Sequence record: NC_049817.1
Length of the DNA: 51,277 nucleotides
From: Escherichia phage tonnikala
Strand: one strand, 5' to 3'
A program made the translations under genes and the position numbers. Below, piece after piece: positions 5,226-48,271 of this stretch; position 1 is the first letter of the stretch; each line of letters opens with the position of its first letter. Below the pieces are notes generated by a model. That model saw only the letters and a list, made by a program, of their open reading frames with translations, made no database searches and was not told the DNA's origin.

Positions 5226-6341
5226 ATGAAAAATGTAAAAATTACAGATGAGCAATTCAAGATCGAACGGGCGGCAGGTAAGACATATAAACAGATCGCT
5301 CAAGAGTACGGAATGAATGTTAGAAGCGTCGAGCGTCGCGCGGCGCGTCTTGCAAAGCAAGGACAGTTATCGACCATCGGAGCGCCTAGTTTTGGTGTTC
5401 ATGGTGAGTCAGTAATGACTGACAAAGAAGGAAATATAATCCTCAAGTGGACCAAAACCAGCAAGGATAAAGAGCAATTAGAGGCATTGATGCGCGCAGC
5501 TATGGAGGCGTTTAGCGAGGAAGTGCCGCGATTAGATCCAGTTCCATTGCAGGAGCGTAATTATAATGAAACGCTTTCATTGTATCCGATCTTTGACATG
5601 CACTTAGGCGCTATGGCCCATAAGCACGAATGCGGCGAAAATTGGGATACTGCGACGGCAGAGCGCGTTATGAATAACTTTATCGACTATGCTTTGATGT
5701 GCGCACCGGACAGCGAAAAGGCTGTTATCCTGATTGGTGGCGATATGCTGCATAGCGACGGCCTGGAGGCGGTGACACCTGCAAGCGGTCACGTACTTGA
5801 TCAAGATAGCCGATATGCAAAATTGGTTTACGTTGCAATCCGTGCAATGCGTCGCGCAATTAATAAAATGCTGTTAAAGCATAAACATGTTGAGGTCCAG
5901 ATCGTAGAGGGGAATCACGACCAATCAGGAATGATTTGGCTACGCGCAGCAATGGCGGCAGCATATGAGAACGAGCCGCGCGTTTACGTTGATGTTTCTC
6001 CTCGCGTTGTTCACCACACGCAATACGGAAAAACTTTCCTTGCGTACCATCACGGGCACACAGTGCGTAAACCGGAGACTTTGCTAATGATGTGCGCGTC
6101 AGATTGGCGGGAGGACTTCGGAAACTCAAAAACGATGTATGCGCACGTAGGGCACTGGCATCACCAGACCGTGACGGAAACGTCGCTTGGGATCGTGGAG
6201 GTACATAGCACCCTGGCAGCAAAAGACGCATACGCCGCGCGAGGTGGCTGGAGATCTCGACGCCGTGCGGCGGTTATCATTTACGACAAAGAGCATGGAG
6301 AAGTCGGGCGATTTGTTCACTATCCAGAAATGATGAGTTGA
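5226..6341 (+). CDS. calcineurin-like metallophosphoesterase with N-terminal sigma-70 region-4-like HTH
   Basis: Phosphoesterase motifs D-x-H (FDMHLG), GGD (IGGDMLHSD), GNHD (VEGNHDQ), HHGH, GHWHH; N-terminal TYKQIAQEYGMNVRSVERRAARL. Confidence 0.65.
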   Translation: MKNVKITDEQFKIERAAGKTYKQIAQEYGMNVRSVERRAARLAKQGQLSTIGAPSFGVHGESVMTDKEGNIILKWTKTSKDKEQLEALMRAAMEAFSEEVPRLDPVPLQERNYNETLSLYPIFDMHLGAMAHKHECGENWDTATAERVMNNFIDYALMCAPDSEKAVILIGGDMLHSDGLEAVTPASGHVLDQDSRYAKLVYVAIRAMRRAINKMLLKHKHVEVQIVEGNHDQSGMIWLRAAMAAAYENEPRVYVDVSPRVVHHTQYGKTFLAYHHGHTVRKPETLLMMCASDWREDFGNSKTMYAHVGHWHHQTVTETSLGIVEVHSTLAAKDAYAARGGWRSRRRAAVIIYDKEHGEVGRFVHYPEMMS

Positions 6342-17537: not shown

Positions 17538-17815
17538 AAGCGCCTGGAGGATGGCGTATTGATAAGAGCGCCTTTGCAAATCAAGAAATCGTAACGAAGG
17601 GCGCGATTGAAGATATGCCAGTTGCAGCTACTCTAAAAGGAGTCCGGCTTGATGACGGCACCTGGTTTGAAGTAACGGCTACACCAAAGACGATCGAGAT
17701 TCATGATGACGTTGTTATTCTTCTGCTTCACTACGGCGGCTATAAAAACCGGACGGTTGCAGGTGAGATCAGCATCAAGCGCGGAACGATGGTTAAGTGG
17801 AAGGTGAAGATTTGA
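17429..17815 (+). CDS. hypothetical protein (GTG start in track; overlaps previous ORF by about 108 nt)
   Basis: 128 aa ORF in another frame; true start uncertain, possible frameshift relationship with upstream ORF. Confidence 0.35.
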   Translation: MEDITKHLFGETPFGGGKTSIQKIIGEEIHKAAAEMKAPGGWRIDKSAFANQEIVTKGAIEDMPVAATLKGVRLDDGTWFEVTATPKTIEIHDDVVILLLHYGGYKNRTVAGEISIKRGTMVKWKVKI

Positions 17816-17891
17816 GTTTGTTCACTGCGGCGCACGTCGCCGCATGGATCGGATTGTTTGCCTACCTGTTTAGCTTTTATTGAGGTGAGAG

Positions 17892-18044
17892 ATGGCTACC
17901 TGGATTTTGCTGATTCTTATGATTGATGGCGGCGTTGACCATATCGAAATGAATAGCCAGCAATCTTGCATTGAGGCACGAGAGCAGATCAAGAACAACA
18001 ACAGGTTTTATGCGTACACTCACACGCTATGTATTAAGAAATAG
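17892..18044 (+). CDS. hypothetical small protein (50 aa, below track cutoff)
   Basis: ATG after GAGGTGAGAG; hydrophobic N-terminus MATWILLILMIDGG; stop TAG is part of the next motif copy. Confidence 0.3.
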   Translation: MATWILLILMIDGGVDHIEMNSQQSCIEAREQIKNNNRFYAYTHTLCIKK

Positions 18045-18060
18045 CACTTTTTGTTAAAAC
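18042..18060 (+). promoter_or_regulatory. conserved intergenic motif copy
   Basis: Followed 17 nt downstream by TATAAT inside a GGCCAGG...GGCCC inverted repeat. Confidence 0.45.
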
Positions 18061-18113
18061 TCAAATGTTGGGCCAGGTATAATGGCCCTGCTTTCAACGA
18101 AGGAGATAAAACG

Positions 18114-18551
18114 ATGTACATTAAAAAGAAGATGAAATGCGTTTCCGTTAACTATGCTTGCTCTGGCATGTTCAAGCCTGGCGAAATCTATACGGCGCAA
18201 AAACTGAAAACATCAACCGGATCTTTTTACGTGAGCAATAGTAAGGGGCATCGCATGTTCCTGAACGGCGGCGAAGGCACTAAGGTTATGGCACACGCTA
18301 TGGTAATGGCTGAATTTGAGGAAGTGAAAGATGAAAACAATAAGCGCGTCAAGCACAGGTTTACTGATAACCACGGCGACGCGATTGATGTATACAAGTT
18401 CGGCGATCGCGTGTTTATTGATGGCACGTTTGAATGTGGGCGTAGGCCGGATTTTAGGTCGATACTTACCGTTGACCAAGTGCGCAAGCTGGCAGATAAG
18501 TTAAATGATCTGGCAGATGAAATAGAATACAAACAAATCCATTTTAATTGA
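18114..18551 (+). CDS. hypothetical protein
   Basis: Start set at MYIKKKMK with AGGAG RBS; 145 aa. Confidence 0.5.
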   Translation: MYIKKKMKCVSVNYACSGMFKPGEIYTAQKLKTSTGSFYVSNSKGHRMFLNGGEGTKVMAHAMVMAEFEEVKDENNKRVKHRFTDNHGDAIDVYKFGDRVFIDGTFECGRRPDFRSILTVDQVRKLADKLNDLADEIEYKQIHFN

Positions 18552-18562
18552 TAGGTTTGATA

Positions 18563-19273
18563 ATGAAAAAATACACTTTCGAACTGTGGGGCAAGAAGTA
18601 CGAATTAATCACCAGCAAGCCGATTGTTATCGTTGACCTGGACGGAACACTATCGGACGGATCGCATCGTTTGCATTTGCTGCCAACTGAAAACTTGCAC
18701 CTTACGGAATCGTGGCGCGAGTTTAACAGGGCCGCCGCCGGAGATTCACCGATTAAAAGCACTATCGCGGTTATTAACGGTTTATGGGTGTCGGGATTTG
18801 CCATCGTCATCTTGACCGGACGCAGCGACGAGGTTCGCTATGAAACCTGCAAATGGTTGAATGAGAACGGCGTGAAGTTTGACGAAATCATCATGCGCCG
18901 CCAGGAGGACAACCGAAAGGATACGGTTATTAAAGAAGAAGCCTTGCGCGCTATTGGCCTGGACAACATTGTTTGCGCCTTTGACGATTCGCCGAACGTG
19001 GTTAAGCACTTCCGCAGCTTGGGGATCACAACCTATCAGGTCACGGAATACGACAAGCCACACGCTCACATACAATCTCACGGCGTGGAATCAATAAAGA
19101 TCACGAAGCGCGCCCTATTCGTCGGCAGCAAAGACAGCCTGGTCAATGCCAGCTTTATCAAAGGCAAGGTTTATGATGTTCATAGCCATGATAAAAACCG
19201 ATTCTTTTTGTGGGATGAAAAAGGTTTTGGCTGGTGCTTTGAACACGACGACGGCGATTTTGTTAATGCGTAA
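18563..19273 (+). CDS. HAD-superfamily phosphatase, polynucleotide 3'-phosphatase-like
   Basis: HAD motif I VIVDLDGTLSD, motif II ILTGRSD, motif III K...AFDDS; extra C-terminal domain of about 70 aa. Confidence 0.6.
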   Translation: MKKYTFELWGKKYELITSKPIVIVDLDGTLSDGSHRLHLLPTENLHLTESWREFNRAAAGDSPIKSTIAVINGLWVSGFAIVILTGRSDEVRYETCKWLNENGVKFDEIIMRRQEDNRKDTVIKEEALRAIGLDNIVCAFDDSPNVVKHFRSLGITTYQVTEYDKPHAHIQSHGVESIKITKRALFVGSKDSLVNASFIKGKVYDVHSHDKNRFFLWDEKGFGWCFEHDDGDFVNA

Positions 19274-19292
19274 TAGCACTTTTTGTTAAAAC
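19274..19292 (+). promoter_or_regulatory. conserved intergenic motif copy
   Basis: Directly after TAA stop; TATAGT 18 nt downstream within a GGGCTTGCGG...AAGCCC hairpin. Confidence 0.45.
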
Positions 19293-19347
19293 ATCTCAAC
19301 GGGCTTGCGGTATAGTAAGCCCATCAACAACAAACGAGGATTAAATC

Positions 19348-19611
19348 ATGGCTAACAAGATCGAATTTTTTAAAGCGGTAGACATTATCGACGGCGCGCC
19401 TAGCTTCTTCGCTATCCATTCTATTGACGGCAAGGATATTGGGTACAACGTTATCCGTCGAGATGGAATATCAAAACTTAGTGACCTGGTAGGCCATATT
19501 GTGTCAATCGGGAAATGCGCATGGCCCGATTCGCCACGAGAGCCGCGCCGCCGCGACATGATTAATCCTGAATTGCTTTACACGCTGGTAGTAGAGGGAG
19601 AAAATAAATGA
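19348..19611 (+). CDS. hypothetical protein
   Basis: 87 aa; RBS-like GAGGA upstream. Confidence 0.45.
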   Translation: MANKIEFFKAVDIIDGAPSFFAIHSIDGKDIGYNVIRRDGISKLSDLVGHIVSIGKCAWPDSPREPRRRDMINPELLYTLVVEGENK

Positions 19612-19793
19612 TTTGGTTACTTGCTTTTTTGGTTGTTTTTCTTTACATTTCAGGCTTGTTTACGTTCCGCGCGTTGGTGAAATATTCCGACACGACAGAC
19701 AAAGACGACAAAATCGTTCTCGCTTTCTGGTTTGTTTGGGTGTGGTTAGCAATTTACGAGATCATCAGAGACAAACAGAAATTTGAGTGGTGA
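19608..19793 (+). CDS. small membrane protein (two predicted TM helices)
   Basis: 61 aa; hydrophobic stretches WLLAFLVVFLYISGLF and LAFWFVWVWLAIY; ATGA overlap with upstream gene. Confidence 0.45.
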   Translation: MIWLLAFLVVFLYISGLFTFRALVKYSDTTDKDDKIVLAFWFVWVWLAIYEIIRDKQKFEW

Positions 19794-19851
19794 TTCTTGC
19801 TATGGCGCATTCATGCAGTGCGCCATGTTGAGAAAACCTAAAGGGGGAAAT

Positions 19852-19995
19852 GATGCGTAACTTTGAAAAAATCATTACCAAAAAGAAGCGTCGCGGGTAC
19901 GATGAGCATGTGGAGTTTGTGAACAAGCAGCGCAAGAAGCGCCATAGACGCGAAATGCTGCATAATATCAACTCACGCTATGGAGGAAACTAAAT
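19852..19995 (+). CDS. hypothetical small basic protein (47 aa, below track cutoff)
   Basis: ATG after AAGGGGGA; translation MMRNFEKIITKKKRRGY...; stop abuts next ATG. Confidence 0.3.
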
Positions 19996-20185
19996 GCAAT
20001 TGCCACCATTTAACGAAAAAAGCGAAGAGATTGCCAAAACTGCATGTCACCTTCGAGAGCTTGCCGACATGATAGAGCGCGGTCAGGTTATGATTGTCAA
20101 TATGACGATCAAAAGCGAGAATAGAAATTTCAAGGTTTTAAGCGAGACAACAGAAATTACCGTCTTGAAAGCAAGGGGAGAGTAA
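19994..20185 (+). CDS. hypothetical protein
   Basis: 63 aa with GGAGG RBS. Confidence 0.45.
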   Translation: MQLPPFNEKSEEIAKTACHLRELADMIERGQVMIVNMTIKSENRNFKVLSETTEITVLKARGE

Positions 20186-20187
20186 TC

Positions 20188-20778
20188 ATGAAACGAGACA
20201 TTATCATCCTTAATGGGCCTCCAGGTTGCGGGAAGGACACTATTGCAGCTTACCTAACAGGCCATCGTTACCCAGCGGTCAAGGCGTCATTCAAACAGCC
20301 GATGTTCGATATTGCGTTTTCCATGCTGGGCGTGTACCGATACGATGAATTTATGGACCTGTACAACGACCGAGAACAAAAAGAAAAGCCTCAAGTTATT
20401 TTGGGCGGCAAGTCACCTCGACAATTCATGATCTGGATTAGCGAGGATGTAATGAAGCCAGTTTTTGGAGATCACTATTTCGGGCGTCGAATGGTTGAAG
20501 AGATTCACGAGATGTACCGAGATTTGGCGGTTGTGATCAGTGATGGCGGATTCCCCGAAGAAATCAAGCCGCTCGTTAAGGCTGGGCATGAGTTGCATAT
20601 TTGCCGATTGCATCGCGACGGATTCACGTTTGCTGGCGATTCGAGAGACTATATTGACCTGAGCGGTTATCACTATCGAATCCATCACTATGATTTCCAC
20701 TTGCAGGACGGCAAGCCTGAACTGGCTGTAAACGAGATCGTCAATGCAGTCAAATGGAAGCACACACAGATTAAATAG
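20188..20778 (+). CDS. P-loop nucleotide kinase, deoxynucleoside monophosphate kinase-like
   Basis: Walker A ILNGPPGCGKDT at N-terminus; overall layout resembles phage dNMP kinases. Confidence 0.55.
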   Translation: MKRDIIILNGPPGCGKDTIAAYLTGHRYPAVKASFKQPMFDIAFSMLGVYRYDEFMDLYNDREQKEKPQVILGGKSPRQFMIWISEDVMKPVFGDHYFGRRMVEEIHEMYRDLAVVISDGGFPEEIKPLVKAGHELHICRLHRDGFTFAGDSRDYIDLSGYHYRIHHYDFHLQDGKPELAVNEIVNAVKWKHTQIK

Positions 20779-20794
20779 CACGAATTGCTAAACG
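20776..20794 (+). promoter_or_regulatory. conserved motif variant (TAGCACGAATTGCTAAACG)
   Basis: TAG is the kinase stop codon; hairpin GCGGGG...CCCCGC then TATAAT. Confidence 0.4.
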
Positions 20795-20848
20795 CGGGGT
20801 TATCGGCCCCGCTATAATGCGCGCATCAACAAGTAAGAGGAAATCACA

Positions 20849-21229
20849 ATGGTTAACATCCGAAAAATCCGCGTCGGCACTAAATTCTTAGTTACTTACG
20901 CAATTCCAGATAGCGGAATGAAGAAGGGCCAGATTGTTAAGGTTGATAGCAAAAGATTCGGAATCCCTGGTATCAATGGCTATCTAATCAATAGAGATCT
21001 TGGATTCGACGGCTTCGCTATCCGTGCGCTTGAGGGTATTGTTGCCACTCTTAAACGAATCACTAATCATCGCGGATGCCCAATCAAGACGATTAAAGCG
21101 CCAATAAATTACGGCAAACTGGATAATCGTCGAATCCGCCGCTTGGCGCGTAACGCGTTAAAATTCCGTGGCGTAGGCGATGATTTCTACTATGGATACA
21201 AGAGGATTGCGCGCAATGCTGGGAAATAA
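20849..21229 (+). CDS. hypothetical basic protein
   Basis: 126 aa with AAGAGGAAA RBS. Confidence 0.5.
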   Translation: MVNIRKIRVGTKFLVTYAIPDSGMKKGQIVKVDSKRFGIPGINGYLINRDLGFDGFAIRALEGIVATLKRITNHRGCPIKTIKAPINYGKLDNRRIRRLARNALKFRGVGDDFYYGYKRIARNAGK

Positions 21230-21328
21230 CAATAACGCAACGAATCCTAAGCCACCTTTTGATTTTCATTACGCAATGATTGCGGTATTATCAATGCTAC
21301 TTTTTCTTTATAGCATGAGGGCGCTACT

Positions 21329-21577
21329 ATGGTTTTTAACGCATTGAAACGACTGTTTAAGCCGGAATACCGGATCGTATTTTGCCGCGACTGTTCTACT
21401 TATCATGTGCAGCGACGCAGCTTAGGCGGCAATTGGCACTATGTTACAGACGACTTTTTCTGCATCATTGCCACTGAATTTAAGTATTACAGTGATGCTT
21501 ATATGTACGTCAAGAAGCGCCACCGCTTACGCAAGTGTCGTTTTTCCGTACTGATTCACGTTAATGATTGTTACTGA
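21329..21577 (+). CDS. hypothetical Cys-rich small protein
   Basis: 82 aa with CRDC...C...C pattern, possible zinc ribbon. Confidence 0.4.
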   Translation: MVFNALKRLFKPEYRIVFCRDCSTYHVQRRSLGGNWHYVTDDFFCIIATEFKYYSDAYMYVKKRHRLRKCRFSVLIHVNDCY

Positions 21578-47124: not shown

Positions 47125-47781
<657 letters not shown>

Positions 47782-47786
47782 TAAAC

Positions 47787-47806
47787 GGGGCGCTTGCGCC
47801 CCTTTT
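47787..47806 (+). terminator. terminator-like hairpin
   Basis: GGGGCG-CTTG-CGCCCC then TTTTGTCA. Confidence 0.4.
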
Positions 47807-47824
47807 GTCATAGGAGAAAACAAA

Positions 47825-48271
47825 ATGCACGTTATTACAGGTGAGATCCGAAAAGAGCCAAAAGTAAAGCAAATGCCTAACGGTAGCACGCTATATGTTG
47901 TTGAGCTTTCCGAACGATATAAAGACCGTGAAGGCAATTGGCAGTATACAAACTATGTATTTTTCTTTAACGCGAAAACAGACGGCCTGAATGGTTGGTA
48001 TGCTGAGGCGTTCCAGGTAGGCAAGGTTATTTCTGTTTCCTGCGATACCTTGCGAGTTGAAACGCGAGAATACAACGGAAAGATTTACAGCACCGTGCAG
48101 CCTGGCGGATTTGCAAACTTGCTATTTAGCCAGCGTGGGGAAAGCCAGCAACAATATCAGCAGCGCACTCAAGGTGGATGGGGGCAACCACAACAGCAAC
48201 AAATCCCTCAACAGCAACCACAGCAAAGCAATCAGCCGCCGATTGACTTTGATGACGATATACCTTTCTGA
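47825..48271 (+). CDS. ssb: single-stranded DNA-binding protein
   Basis: OB-fold-like N-terminus, Gln/Pro-rich linker and acidic tip DFDDDIPF; AGGAG RBS before ATG at 47825. Confidence 0.8.
   Translation: MHVITGEIRKEPKVKQMPNGSTLYVVELSERYKDREGNWQYTNYVFFFNAKTDGLNGWYAEAFQVGKVISVSCDTLRVETREYNGKIYSTVQPGGFANLLFSQRGESQQQYQQRTQGGWGQPQQQQIPQQQPQQSNQPPIDFDDDIPF

What the first reader, a model, noticed from the sequence alone, without database searches (positions are those of the whole stretch)
18563..20778. Stand-alone 3'-phosphatase-like HAD enzyme and a separate dNMP-kinase-like P-loop kinase
The HAD protein has the DxDGT, T/S and K...DD motifs arranged as in polynucleotide kinase 3'-phosphatase domains but lacks a fused kinase, and has an extra 70-aa C-terminal domain. 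The P-loop kinase nearby resembles phage dNMP kinases. The pair may serve nucleic-acid end healing (for example against anticodon nucleases) or nucleotide salvage for a modified-base pathway.
Basis: partly seen in the sequence, partly recalled or inferred. Interest (0 to 1): 0.55.

Follow-up and report, generated by a model that had tools for sequence, protein, structure and literature searches.

The report
Phage 3'-phosphatase and dNMP-kinase gene pair
A T1-like coliphage carries a phosphatase related to the repair enzyme Pnkp but without its kinase half, plus a separate T4-type nucleotide kinase; the two genes travel together (and are sometimes fused) in many phages, and most likely recycle nucleotides rather than repair RNA.

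The parts
18563..19273 (+). HAD phosphatase gene, 236 aa. PNKP-type 3'-phosphatase core (aa 1-175) plus a lineage-specific C-terminal beta-rich domain of about 60 aa (aa 176-236, nt about 19088-19270).
19348..19611 (+). Small ORF (87 aa) between the two genes, function unknown; part of a variable insert.
   Evidence: ORF list. Weak phrog_25318/12951 hits of unknown function. The HAD-kinase spacing ranges from overlap to about 2 kb among relatives.
19608..19793 (+). Small ORF (61 aa) with two hydrophobic segments, function unknown.
   Evidence: phrog_9755 2e-22, unknown function; sequence.
19850..19993 (+). Small basic ORF (47 aa), function unknown.
   Evidence: a CDS is annotated at the equivalent position in NorthRox; no family hit.
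19994..20185 (+). Small ORF (63 aa), function unknown, ending 2 nt before the kinase start.
   Evidence: phrog_16293 2e-8.
20188..20778 (+). T4-gp1-type P-loop (deoxy)nucleoside monophosphate kinase, 196 aa; a minimal form lacking the T4 insert.
5226..6341 (+). Frequent third partner of the module in other phages, 12 kb away here: phrog_704 'DNA repair exonuclease', an N-terminal HTH plus a calcineurin-like metallophosphoesterase.
   Evidence: phrog_704 5e-148. Invariant DxH / GDxxH / GNHD / HHGH / GHxHH motifs. Sub-threshold Pfam Metallophos hits in 4 of 7 members. Adjacent to HAD(+kinase) in 12 loci.

Best explanation
The two genes form a conserved phage nucleotide-supply module. The kinase is a T4-gp1-type (deoxy)nucleoside monophosphate kinase that turns 5'-dNMPs into dNDPs. 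The HAD protein is a Pnkp-type Mg-dependent aspartyl-phosphatase. It most likely removes 3'-phosphates from nucleic-acid breakdown products (3'-dNMP, pdNp, 3'-phosphorylated oligonucleotides) so that they can be digested further or handed to the kinase as 5'-dNMPs. In many phages a metallophosphoesterase 'exonuclease' is the third member. Together they would feed the recycling of host DNA that T1-like phages, which have no polymerase or nucleotide-synthesis genes of their own, are known to rely on. What is shown: family and fold assignments, retained catalytic residues, synteny, fusion and gene contexts. What is inferred: the substrates and the pathway order.
Against: No enzyme assay exists for either protein. 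The closest characterised relatives of the HAD (28-30% identity) all act on polynucleotide ends. Two of the four T4 dNMP phosphate ligands (K37, R177) are not conserved in the kinase, so its acceptor could differ. In Gajwadongvirus the pair is followed by an ATP-dependent DNA ligase and in Chaseviridae the kinase follows a ligase, which also fits a repair reading. A phosphatase fused to a kinase is the hallmark architecture of PNKP enzymes. Which nuclease would generate 3'-phosphorylated products in T1 infection is unknown.
Confidence: 0.45

Rival explanations
1. Split (occasionally fused) polynucleotide kinase-phosphatase. The HAD heals 3'-phosphate or 2',3'-cyclic ends, and the gp1-like kinase has been recruited as the 5'-OH polynucleotide kinase, replacing the canonical Pnk kinase. 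Healed DNA nicks are sealed by host LigA (or by a phage ligase where present), protecting phage DNA from nucleases that leave 3'-P/5'-OH breaks.
For: The HAD is a bona fide PNKP-type domain with all catalytic residues. The phosphatase-kinase fusion mirrors the domain order of mammalian PNKP. There is tight synteny with an Mre11-like metallophosphoesterase, and in vB_Kp_Z1 with a DNA ligase.
Confidence: 0.2
2. Two independent enzymes that are merely neighbours in the DNA-metabolism gene block. The kinase boosts dNDP supply. The HAD is a DNA 3'-phosphatase (like yeast Tpp1) that cleans 3'-blocked ends for recombination-dependent replication, with no metabolic coupling between them.
For: In this window four small ORFs separate the genes, and the spacing is up to about 2 kb in relatives. 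Each gene occurs without the other in some phages.
Against: Same-strand HAD-then-kinase order is kept in 57 of 72 loci that have enough upstream sequence, with overlapping stop and start codons in many. It recurs in unrelated lineages: Kagunavirus, Gajwadongvirus and a Yersinia myovirus. Fusions argue for selection on co-function.
Confidence: 0.2
3. RNA repair against anticodon nucleases (PrrC/RloC-type), as in T4 Pnkp plus Rnl1; the first reader's leading idea.
For: Homology of the HAD to the T4 Pnkp and Pnkp1 phosphatase domains.
Against: No RNA ligase and no tRNA genes in the window or in annotated relatives. From my own knowledge, host RtcB joins 3'-P/2',3'>P ends to 5'-OH ends directly, so healing to 3'-OH/5'-P would remove its substrate. 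The kinase is not Pnk-like.
Confidence: 0.05

Closest known systems
T4 polynucleotide kinase/3'-phosphatase (PseT; PDB 1LTQ, 5UJ0) and Capnocytophaga Pnkp1 (4XRP): their C-terminal HAD phosphatase domains
   Different: No N-terminal Pnk-type kinase. An 11-residue, almost invariant insert after motif I (HRLHLLPTxxLHLTESW). A conserved C-terminal tail (YDKPHxHxQSHGVE). In this lineage, an extra 60-aa domain. No partner RNA ligase in the genome.
T4 gp1 deoxynucleoside monophosphate kinase (PDB 1DEK/1DEL); also T5 Dnk and P. putida PP_1964
   Different: Only 16% identity. 196 aa against 241 aa (lacks the T4 insert of about 35 residues). T4 K37 and R177 are replaced by F40 and G121, with invariant K36 and R153 nearby as possible substitutes. 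No Pfam model covers the protein.
Stand-alone DNA 3'-phosphatase Tpp1 of yeast (my own knowledge, not tested here)
   Same: A PNKP-type HAD 3'-phosphatase that exists without a kinase domain.
   Different: Eukaryotic DNA-repair enzyme; no comparison was run here; it has no associated nucleotide kinase.
Mammalian PNKP (phosphatase-kinase order) and other bifunctional Pnkp enzymes
   Same: The rare fusions P0263, P0387 and P0269 have a HAD_PNKP domain N-terminal to a P-loop kinase.
   Different: The kinase half is gp1-type rather than Pnk-type. There is no FHA domain. In the window the two halves are separate genes 915 nt apart.
Phage kinase plus NT5C-type deoxyribonucleotidase pairs (e.g. Vequintavirus DrSchubert bas50_0194/0193)
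   Same: The same kinase family is immediately followed by a HAD-superfamily nucleotidase, next to thyA and RNR.
   Different: That HAD belongs to PF06941 (NT5C), not HAD_PNKP, and the gene order is kinase then HAD.

Membership tests
HAD_PNKP (Pfam PF25109), Pnkp-type 3'-phosphatase domain | Profile score above the curated gathering threshold | tested here: met
   75.3 bits against 27.6, E 7.2e-21, residues 21-162.
HAD_PNKP (Pfam PF25109), Pnkp-type 3'-phosphatase domain | Catalytic residues equivalent to T4 D165, D167, R176, R213, D254 and D278 (essential set recalled from Wang and Shuman 2002) | tested here: met
   D25, D27, R36, R87, D116 and D142 are invariant in alignment A3 and in 22 family members.
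HAD_PNKP (Pfam PF25109), Pnkp-type 3'-phosphatase domain | Fold closest to solved Pnkp phosphatase domains | tested here: met
HAD_PNKP (Pfam PF25109), Pnkp-type 3'-phosphatase domain | Hydrolysis of 3'-phosphate on polynucleotide ends | not testable with these tools
   Needs an enzyme assay.
Bifunctional polynucleotide kinase-phosphatase (T4 PseT type) | Pnk-type P-loop 5'-kinase domain in the same protein | tested here: not met
   No kinase domain in the 236-aa protein. A PseT query matches only the phosphatase part, 18626-19042, and nothing else in the window.
Bifunctional polynucleotide kinase-phosphatase (T4 PseT type) | Neighbouring kinase homologous to the Pnk kinase | tested here: not met
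T4 gp1-type dNMP kinase (PHROG 139, PDB 1DEK) | Profile and fold match to the characterised member | tested here: met
T4 gp1-type dNMP kinase (PHROG 139, PDB 1DEK) | dNMP-binding residues of 1DEK (K37, R68, R132, R177, M135, D175, E181; list from PMC10653934) | tested here: inconclusive
   The MAFFT projection keeps R68, R132, M135, D175 and E181, but K37 becomes F40 and R177 becomes G121. The lid region alignment is ambiguous.
T4 gp1-type dNMP kinase (PHROG 139, PDB 1DEK) | ATP-dependent phosphorylation of dNMPs | not testable with these tools
   Needs an assay, or complementation of tmk or T4 gene 1 mutants.
Phage RNA-repair system (Pnkp + RNA ligase) | An RNA ligase encoded with the end-healing enzyme | tested here: not met
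   tblastn with a T4-type RnlA and two phage DNA ligases gives no hit below E = 1. None is annotated in NorthRox or FritzSarasin. No ligase domain in the large unknown ORFs.
HAD class-B acid phosphatase / NT5C nucleotidases | Profile score above threshold | tested here: inconclusive
   PF03767 scores 39.8 bits against a cut-off of 27, which is met but well below the PNKP score. NT5C is not matched by the window protein and only weakly (E 7e-4, below cut-off) by the LIMEzero orthologue.

The most novel reading that the evidence does not exclude
The HAD phosphatase, the gp1-like kinase and the phrog_704 metallophosphoesterase together form a previously unrecognised three-enzyme phage module. Either it is the long-sought machinery by which T1-like phages convert host DNA into precursors, or it is a new class of end-healing enzyme in which an NMP-kinase fold has replaced the canonical Pnk kinase, with natural phosphatase-kinase fusions as the single-chain form.
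Probability: 0.2. Interest if true: 0.6.

Novelty: new member of a known kind. Interest (0 to 1): 0.35.

Why it matters
Thousands of phage genomes label this HAD protein "polynucleotide kinase", although it has no kinase domain, and that error spreads through automated annotation. Treating it and the gp1-like kinase as a conserved, sometimes fused unit, often joined by a metallophosphoesterase, gives named candidate genes for an old unanswered question: how T1-type phages, which lack polymerase and nucleotide-synthesis genes, turn host DNA into precursors. It also shows that homology to Pnkp is not evidence for RNA repair when no ligase is present. The biochemical tests needed are simple.

Tried and rejected
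- Sequence search of the kinase, and of its 26-member profile, against PDB chains found only P-loop-level hits. Pfam and NCBIfam have no model for it.
- LIMEzero ORF31, just downstream of the HAD, was tested as a possible kinase. It is not one; it is a PF18909 dNTP diphosphohydrolase.
- A search for T1-type HAD genes in 185,579 bacterial and archaeal genomes with two strict peptide patterns found nothing.
- The promoter and terminator scan of 17800-21400 gave counts no higher than the shuffled controls, so transcription units could not be defined.
- Literature searches found only annotation-level mentions of the two genes in Drexlerviridae. The retron Eco2 paper was a false lead.
- The metallophosphoesterase gave no PDB sequence hit, as a single sequence or as a profile.
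- Considered and rejected: a modified-base pathway (only methyltransferases are present) and a degenerate kinase remnant upstream (ORF 18051-18551 has no P-loop and no PseT similarity).

Full report
**What the window is.** Positions 18000-21500 are 96-97% identical to Escherichia phages vB_EcoS-95, NorthRox, FritzSarasin (Bas04), tonijn and SECphi27. The two whose records I opened, NorthRox and FritzSarasin, are classified as Warwickvirus (Drexlerviridae, Tempevirinae). Base composition is flat at about 45% GC. The annotated relative NorthRox has terminase, structural, recombination (exonuclease VIII, Erf, SSB), primase, helicase, two methyltransferases and lysis genes. It has no polymerase, no ligase and no nucleotide-synthesis genes.

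**Checking the observation.**
- The 236-aa protein reaches Pfam HAD_PNKP at E 7e-21, well above threshold, and phrog_415 at 1e-66.
- By sequence it hits the phosphatase halves of Pnkp1 (4xrp) and T4 Pnk (1ltq, 5uj0).
- An AlphaFold model built from a 22-sequence alignment is confident for the core and the C-terminal domain. It is poor for residues 28-65 and 162-177.
- In an alignment with T4 Pnk, a Krischvirus PseT and three other stand-alone relatives, the equivalents of T4 D165, D167, R176, R213, D254 and D278 are invariant.
- No kinase is fused. A full PseT query matches only 18626-19042 in the whole window.

**How this HAD subtype differs from T4.** It has a nearly invariant 11-residue insert after motif I and a conserved C-terminal tail.

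**The extra C-terminal domain.** It covers residues about 176-236 and is about 60 aa, not 70.
- Most relatives stop at about 180 aa, and FritzSarasin has an unrelated ORF there instead.
- The domain occurs in only 25 phage records. In 23 of them it lies inside the annotated HAD gene; the two tiwna records have no feature annotated there.
- It is weakly similar (33% over 46 aa) to stand-alone 65-aa ORFs of T1-like phages. A small early gene was probably captured by fusion.
- Other lineages carry a Cys-rich tail at the same place.

**The kinase.**
- Pfam, NCBIfam and PDB sequence searches see only the P-loop.
- PHROG 139 ('dNMP kinase') matches at 4e-51. T4 gp1 itself hits the same profile region at 1.8e-65. 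My typed gp1 sequence was verified as 100% identical to T4 gene 1.
- hhalign aligns 73 columns with gp1, including the DRE and GKSP motifs (E 1.5e-5). It aligns only the 27 P-loop columns with T4 Pnk kinase.
- I used the 1DEK ligand table from PMC10653934 and a MAFFT alignment bridged by 60 family members. R68, R132, M135, D175 and E181 are kept. K37 and R177 are not, though invariant K36 and R153 lie nearby.
- The family is very large: 3115 clusters at 50% identity and 1458 phage records.
- The same paper shows that another gp1-like kinase, PP_1964, supplies the essential dTMP kinase activity in P. putida, and it cites T4 and T5 enzymes as dNMP kinases.

**Are the two genes a unit?** Yes.
- Among 80 IMG/VR loci retrieved with the kinase profile, 61 have the HAD gene upstream on the same strand (57 of the 72 with at least 3 kb of upstream sequence). 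In 21 of them the genes are adjacent or overlapping.
- The window's 915-nt gap holds four small ORFs of unknown function and is one variant of this arrangement.
- The order HAD then kinase recurs in Kagunavirus K1H, in the Autographiviridae phage vB_Kp_Z1 and in a Yersinia myovirus.
- Three protein clusters from two lineages only 37% identical are HAD-linker-kinase fusions carrying the signature motifs of both window proteins. One lies on a 60-kb phage contig.

**A frequent third partner.** The phrog_704 'DNA repair exonuclease' lies directly beside the pair, or beside the fusion, in 12 loci. Its invariant DxH, GDxxH, GNHD, HHGH and GHxHH motifs, together with sub-threshold Metallophos hits, identify an N-terminal HTH joined to a calcineurin-like metallophosphoesterase. 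In the window this gene is at 5226-6341, 12 kb away.

**Which function?** The gene contexts of each partner outside Drexlerviridae point to nucleotide metabolism.
- A T1-type HAD (48% identical) overlaps the end of nrdB in the td-nrdA-nrdB cluster of Krischvirus AV108. That phage also has a complete PseT and an RNA ligase, so the extra HAD is not there for end healing.
- In LIMEzero the HAD is translationally coupled to a PF18909 dATP/dGTP diphosphohydrolase.
- In a Vequintavirus the kinase is followed by an NT5C-type HAD nucleotidase, then thyA and RNR.
- In Chaseviridae the kinase sits between DNA ligase and dUTPase. In Kuravirus it is beside a 5'-3' exonuclease.
- The window has no ligase homologue and no tRNA genes.
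- T1 and TLS are known to degrade host DNA and reuse its nucleotides, and the genes responsible are unidentified (PMC11447400). A recent paper noted the two 'kinases' next to the exonuclease and guessed that they enhance nucleotide supply (PMC13164509).

**Best explanation and rivals.** I therefore favour a salvage module: a 3'-phosphatase clearing breakdown products, a nuclease, and a dNMP kinase (confidence 0.45).

The main rival is a split PNKP with a gp1-type kinase acting on 5'-OH DNA ends (0.2). It is kept alive by the PNKP homology, the fusion architecture and the adjacent DNA ligase in vB_Kp_Z1. Mere neighbourhood without coupling (0.2) is weakened by the fusions. RNA repair against anticodon nucleases (0.05) lacks a ligase, and from my own knowledge it would work against host RtcB.

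**Comparison with what is known.** Each protein is a new member of a known family. Relatives are already annotated as 'polynucleotide kinase' or '3'-phosphatase' and as 'dNMP kinase' or 'ATP-binding protein'. The first label is wrong with respect to kinase activity. What is not in the literature I could search is the conserved pair or triad and the fusions. No biochemistry exists for either protein.

**Limits.**
- Substrates are inferred from homology and context only.
- The lid-region alignment with gp1 is uncertain.
- The fusion count comes from word-indexed searches and may be an underestimate.

Noticed in passing
window 5226-6341 (+): The gene annotated in relatives as 'DNA repair exonuclease' (phrog_704) has no Pfam or PDB hit above threshold. 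It carries an N-terminal HTH and the full set of calcineurin-like metallophosphoesterase motifs (DxH, GDxxH, GNHD, HHGH, GHxHH). In many other phages it lies directly next to the HAD/kinase pair or the fusion.
   Followed up: partly
kinase homologues P0182, P0206, P0213, P0219, P0228 (JulesPiccard), P0233, P0240; window SSB 47774-48271: Several kinase homologues, but not the window's, end in an acidic '...DDIPW' tail that resembles the SSB C-terminal tip. The window's own SSB ends in PPIDFDDDIPF. This hints that the kinase is recruited to SSB-partner proteins or to the replisome in some phages.
   Followed up: no
window 19088-19270; L071:5913-6110: The HAD C-terminal domain is weakly similar (33% over 46 aa) to stand-alone ORFs of about 65 aa in T1-like phages, which suggests a small early gene was captured by fusion. 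Other HAD lineages (P0035, P0098) carry a Cys-rich tail at the same position.
   Followed up: partly
L086:4998-5474 (Escherichia phage AV108, Krischvirus): A T4-like phage that has a complete PseT and an RNA ligase also carries a second, T1-type stand-alone 3'-phosphatase. Its start overlaps the stop of nrdB.
   Followed up: partly
L090:4606-5196 (Escherichia phage DrSchubert bas50_0193): A hypothetical protein overlapping the end of the gp1-like kinase gene is an NT5C-type HAD deoxyribonucleotidase (PF06941, E 6e-6). It sits upstream of thyA and RNR. This is a second, independent kinase-HAD pairing.
   Followed up: partly
window 18051-18551 (+): The 166-aa ORF just upstream of the HAD gene has a weak sub-threshold hit to the T7 ssDNA-binding protein family (PF21265, E 0.0014). 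In NorthRox and FritzSarasin the corresponding stretch is annotated as two or three smaller ORFs.
   Followed up: no
window 19274-19347: The intergenic stretch after the HAD gene contains a perfect 6-bp stem (GGGCTT...AAGCCC) with a 10-nt loop. It is not followed by a T-run and was not called by the terminator scan.
   Followed up: no
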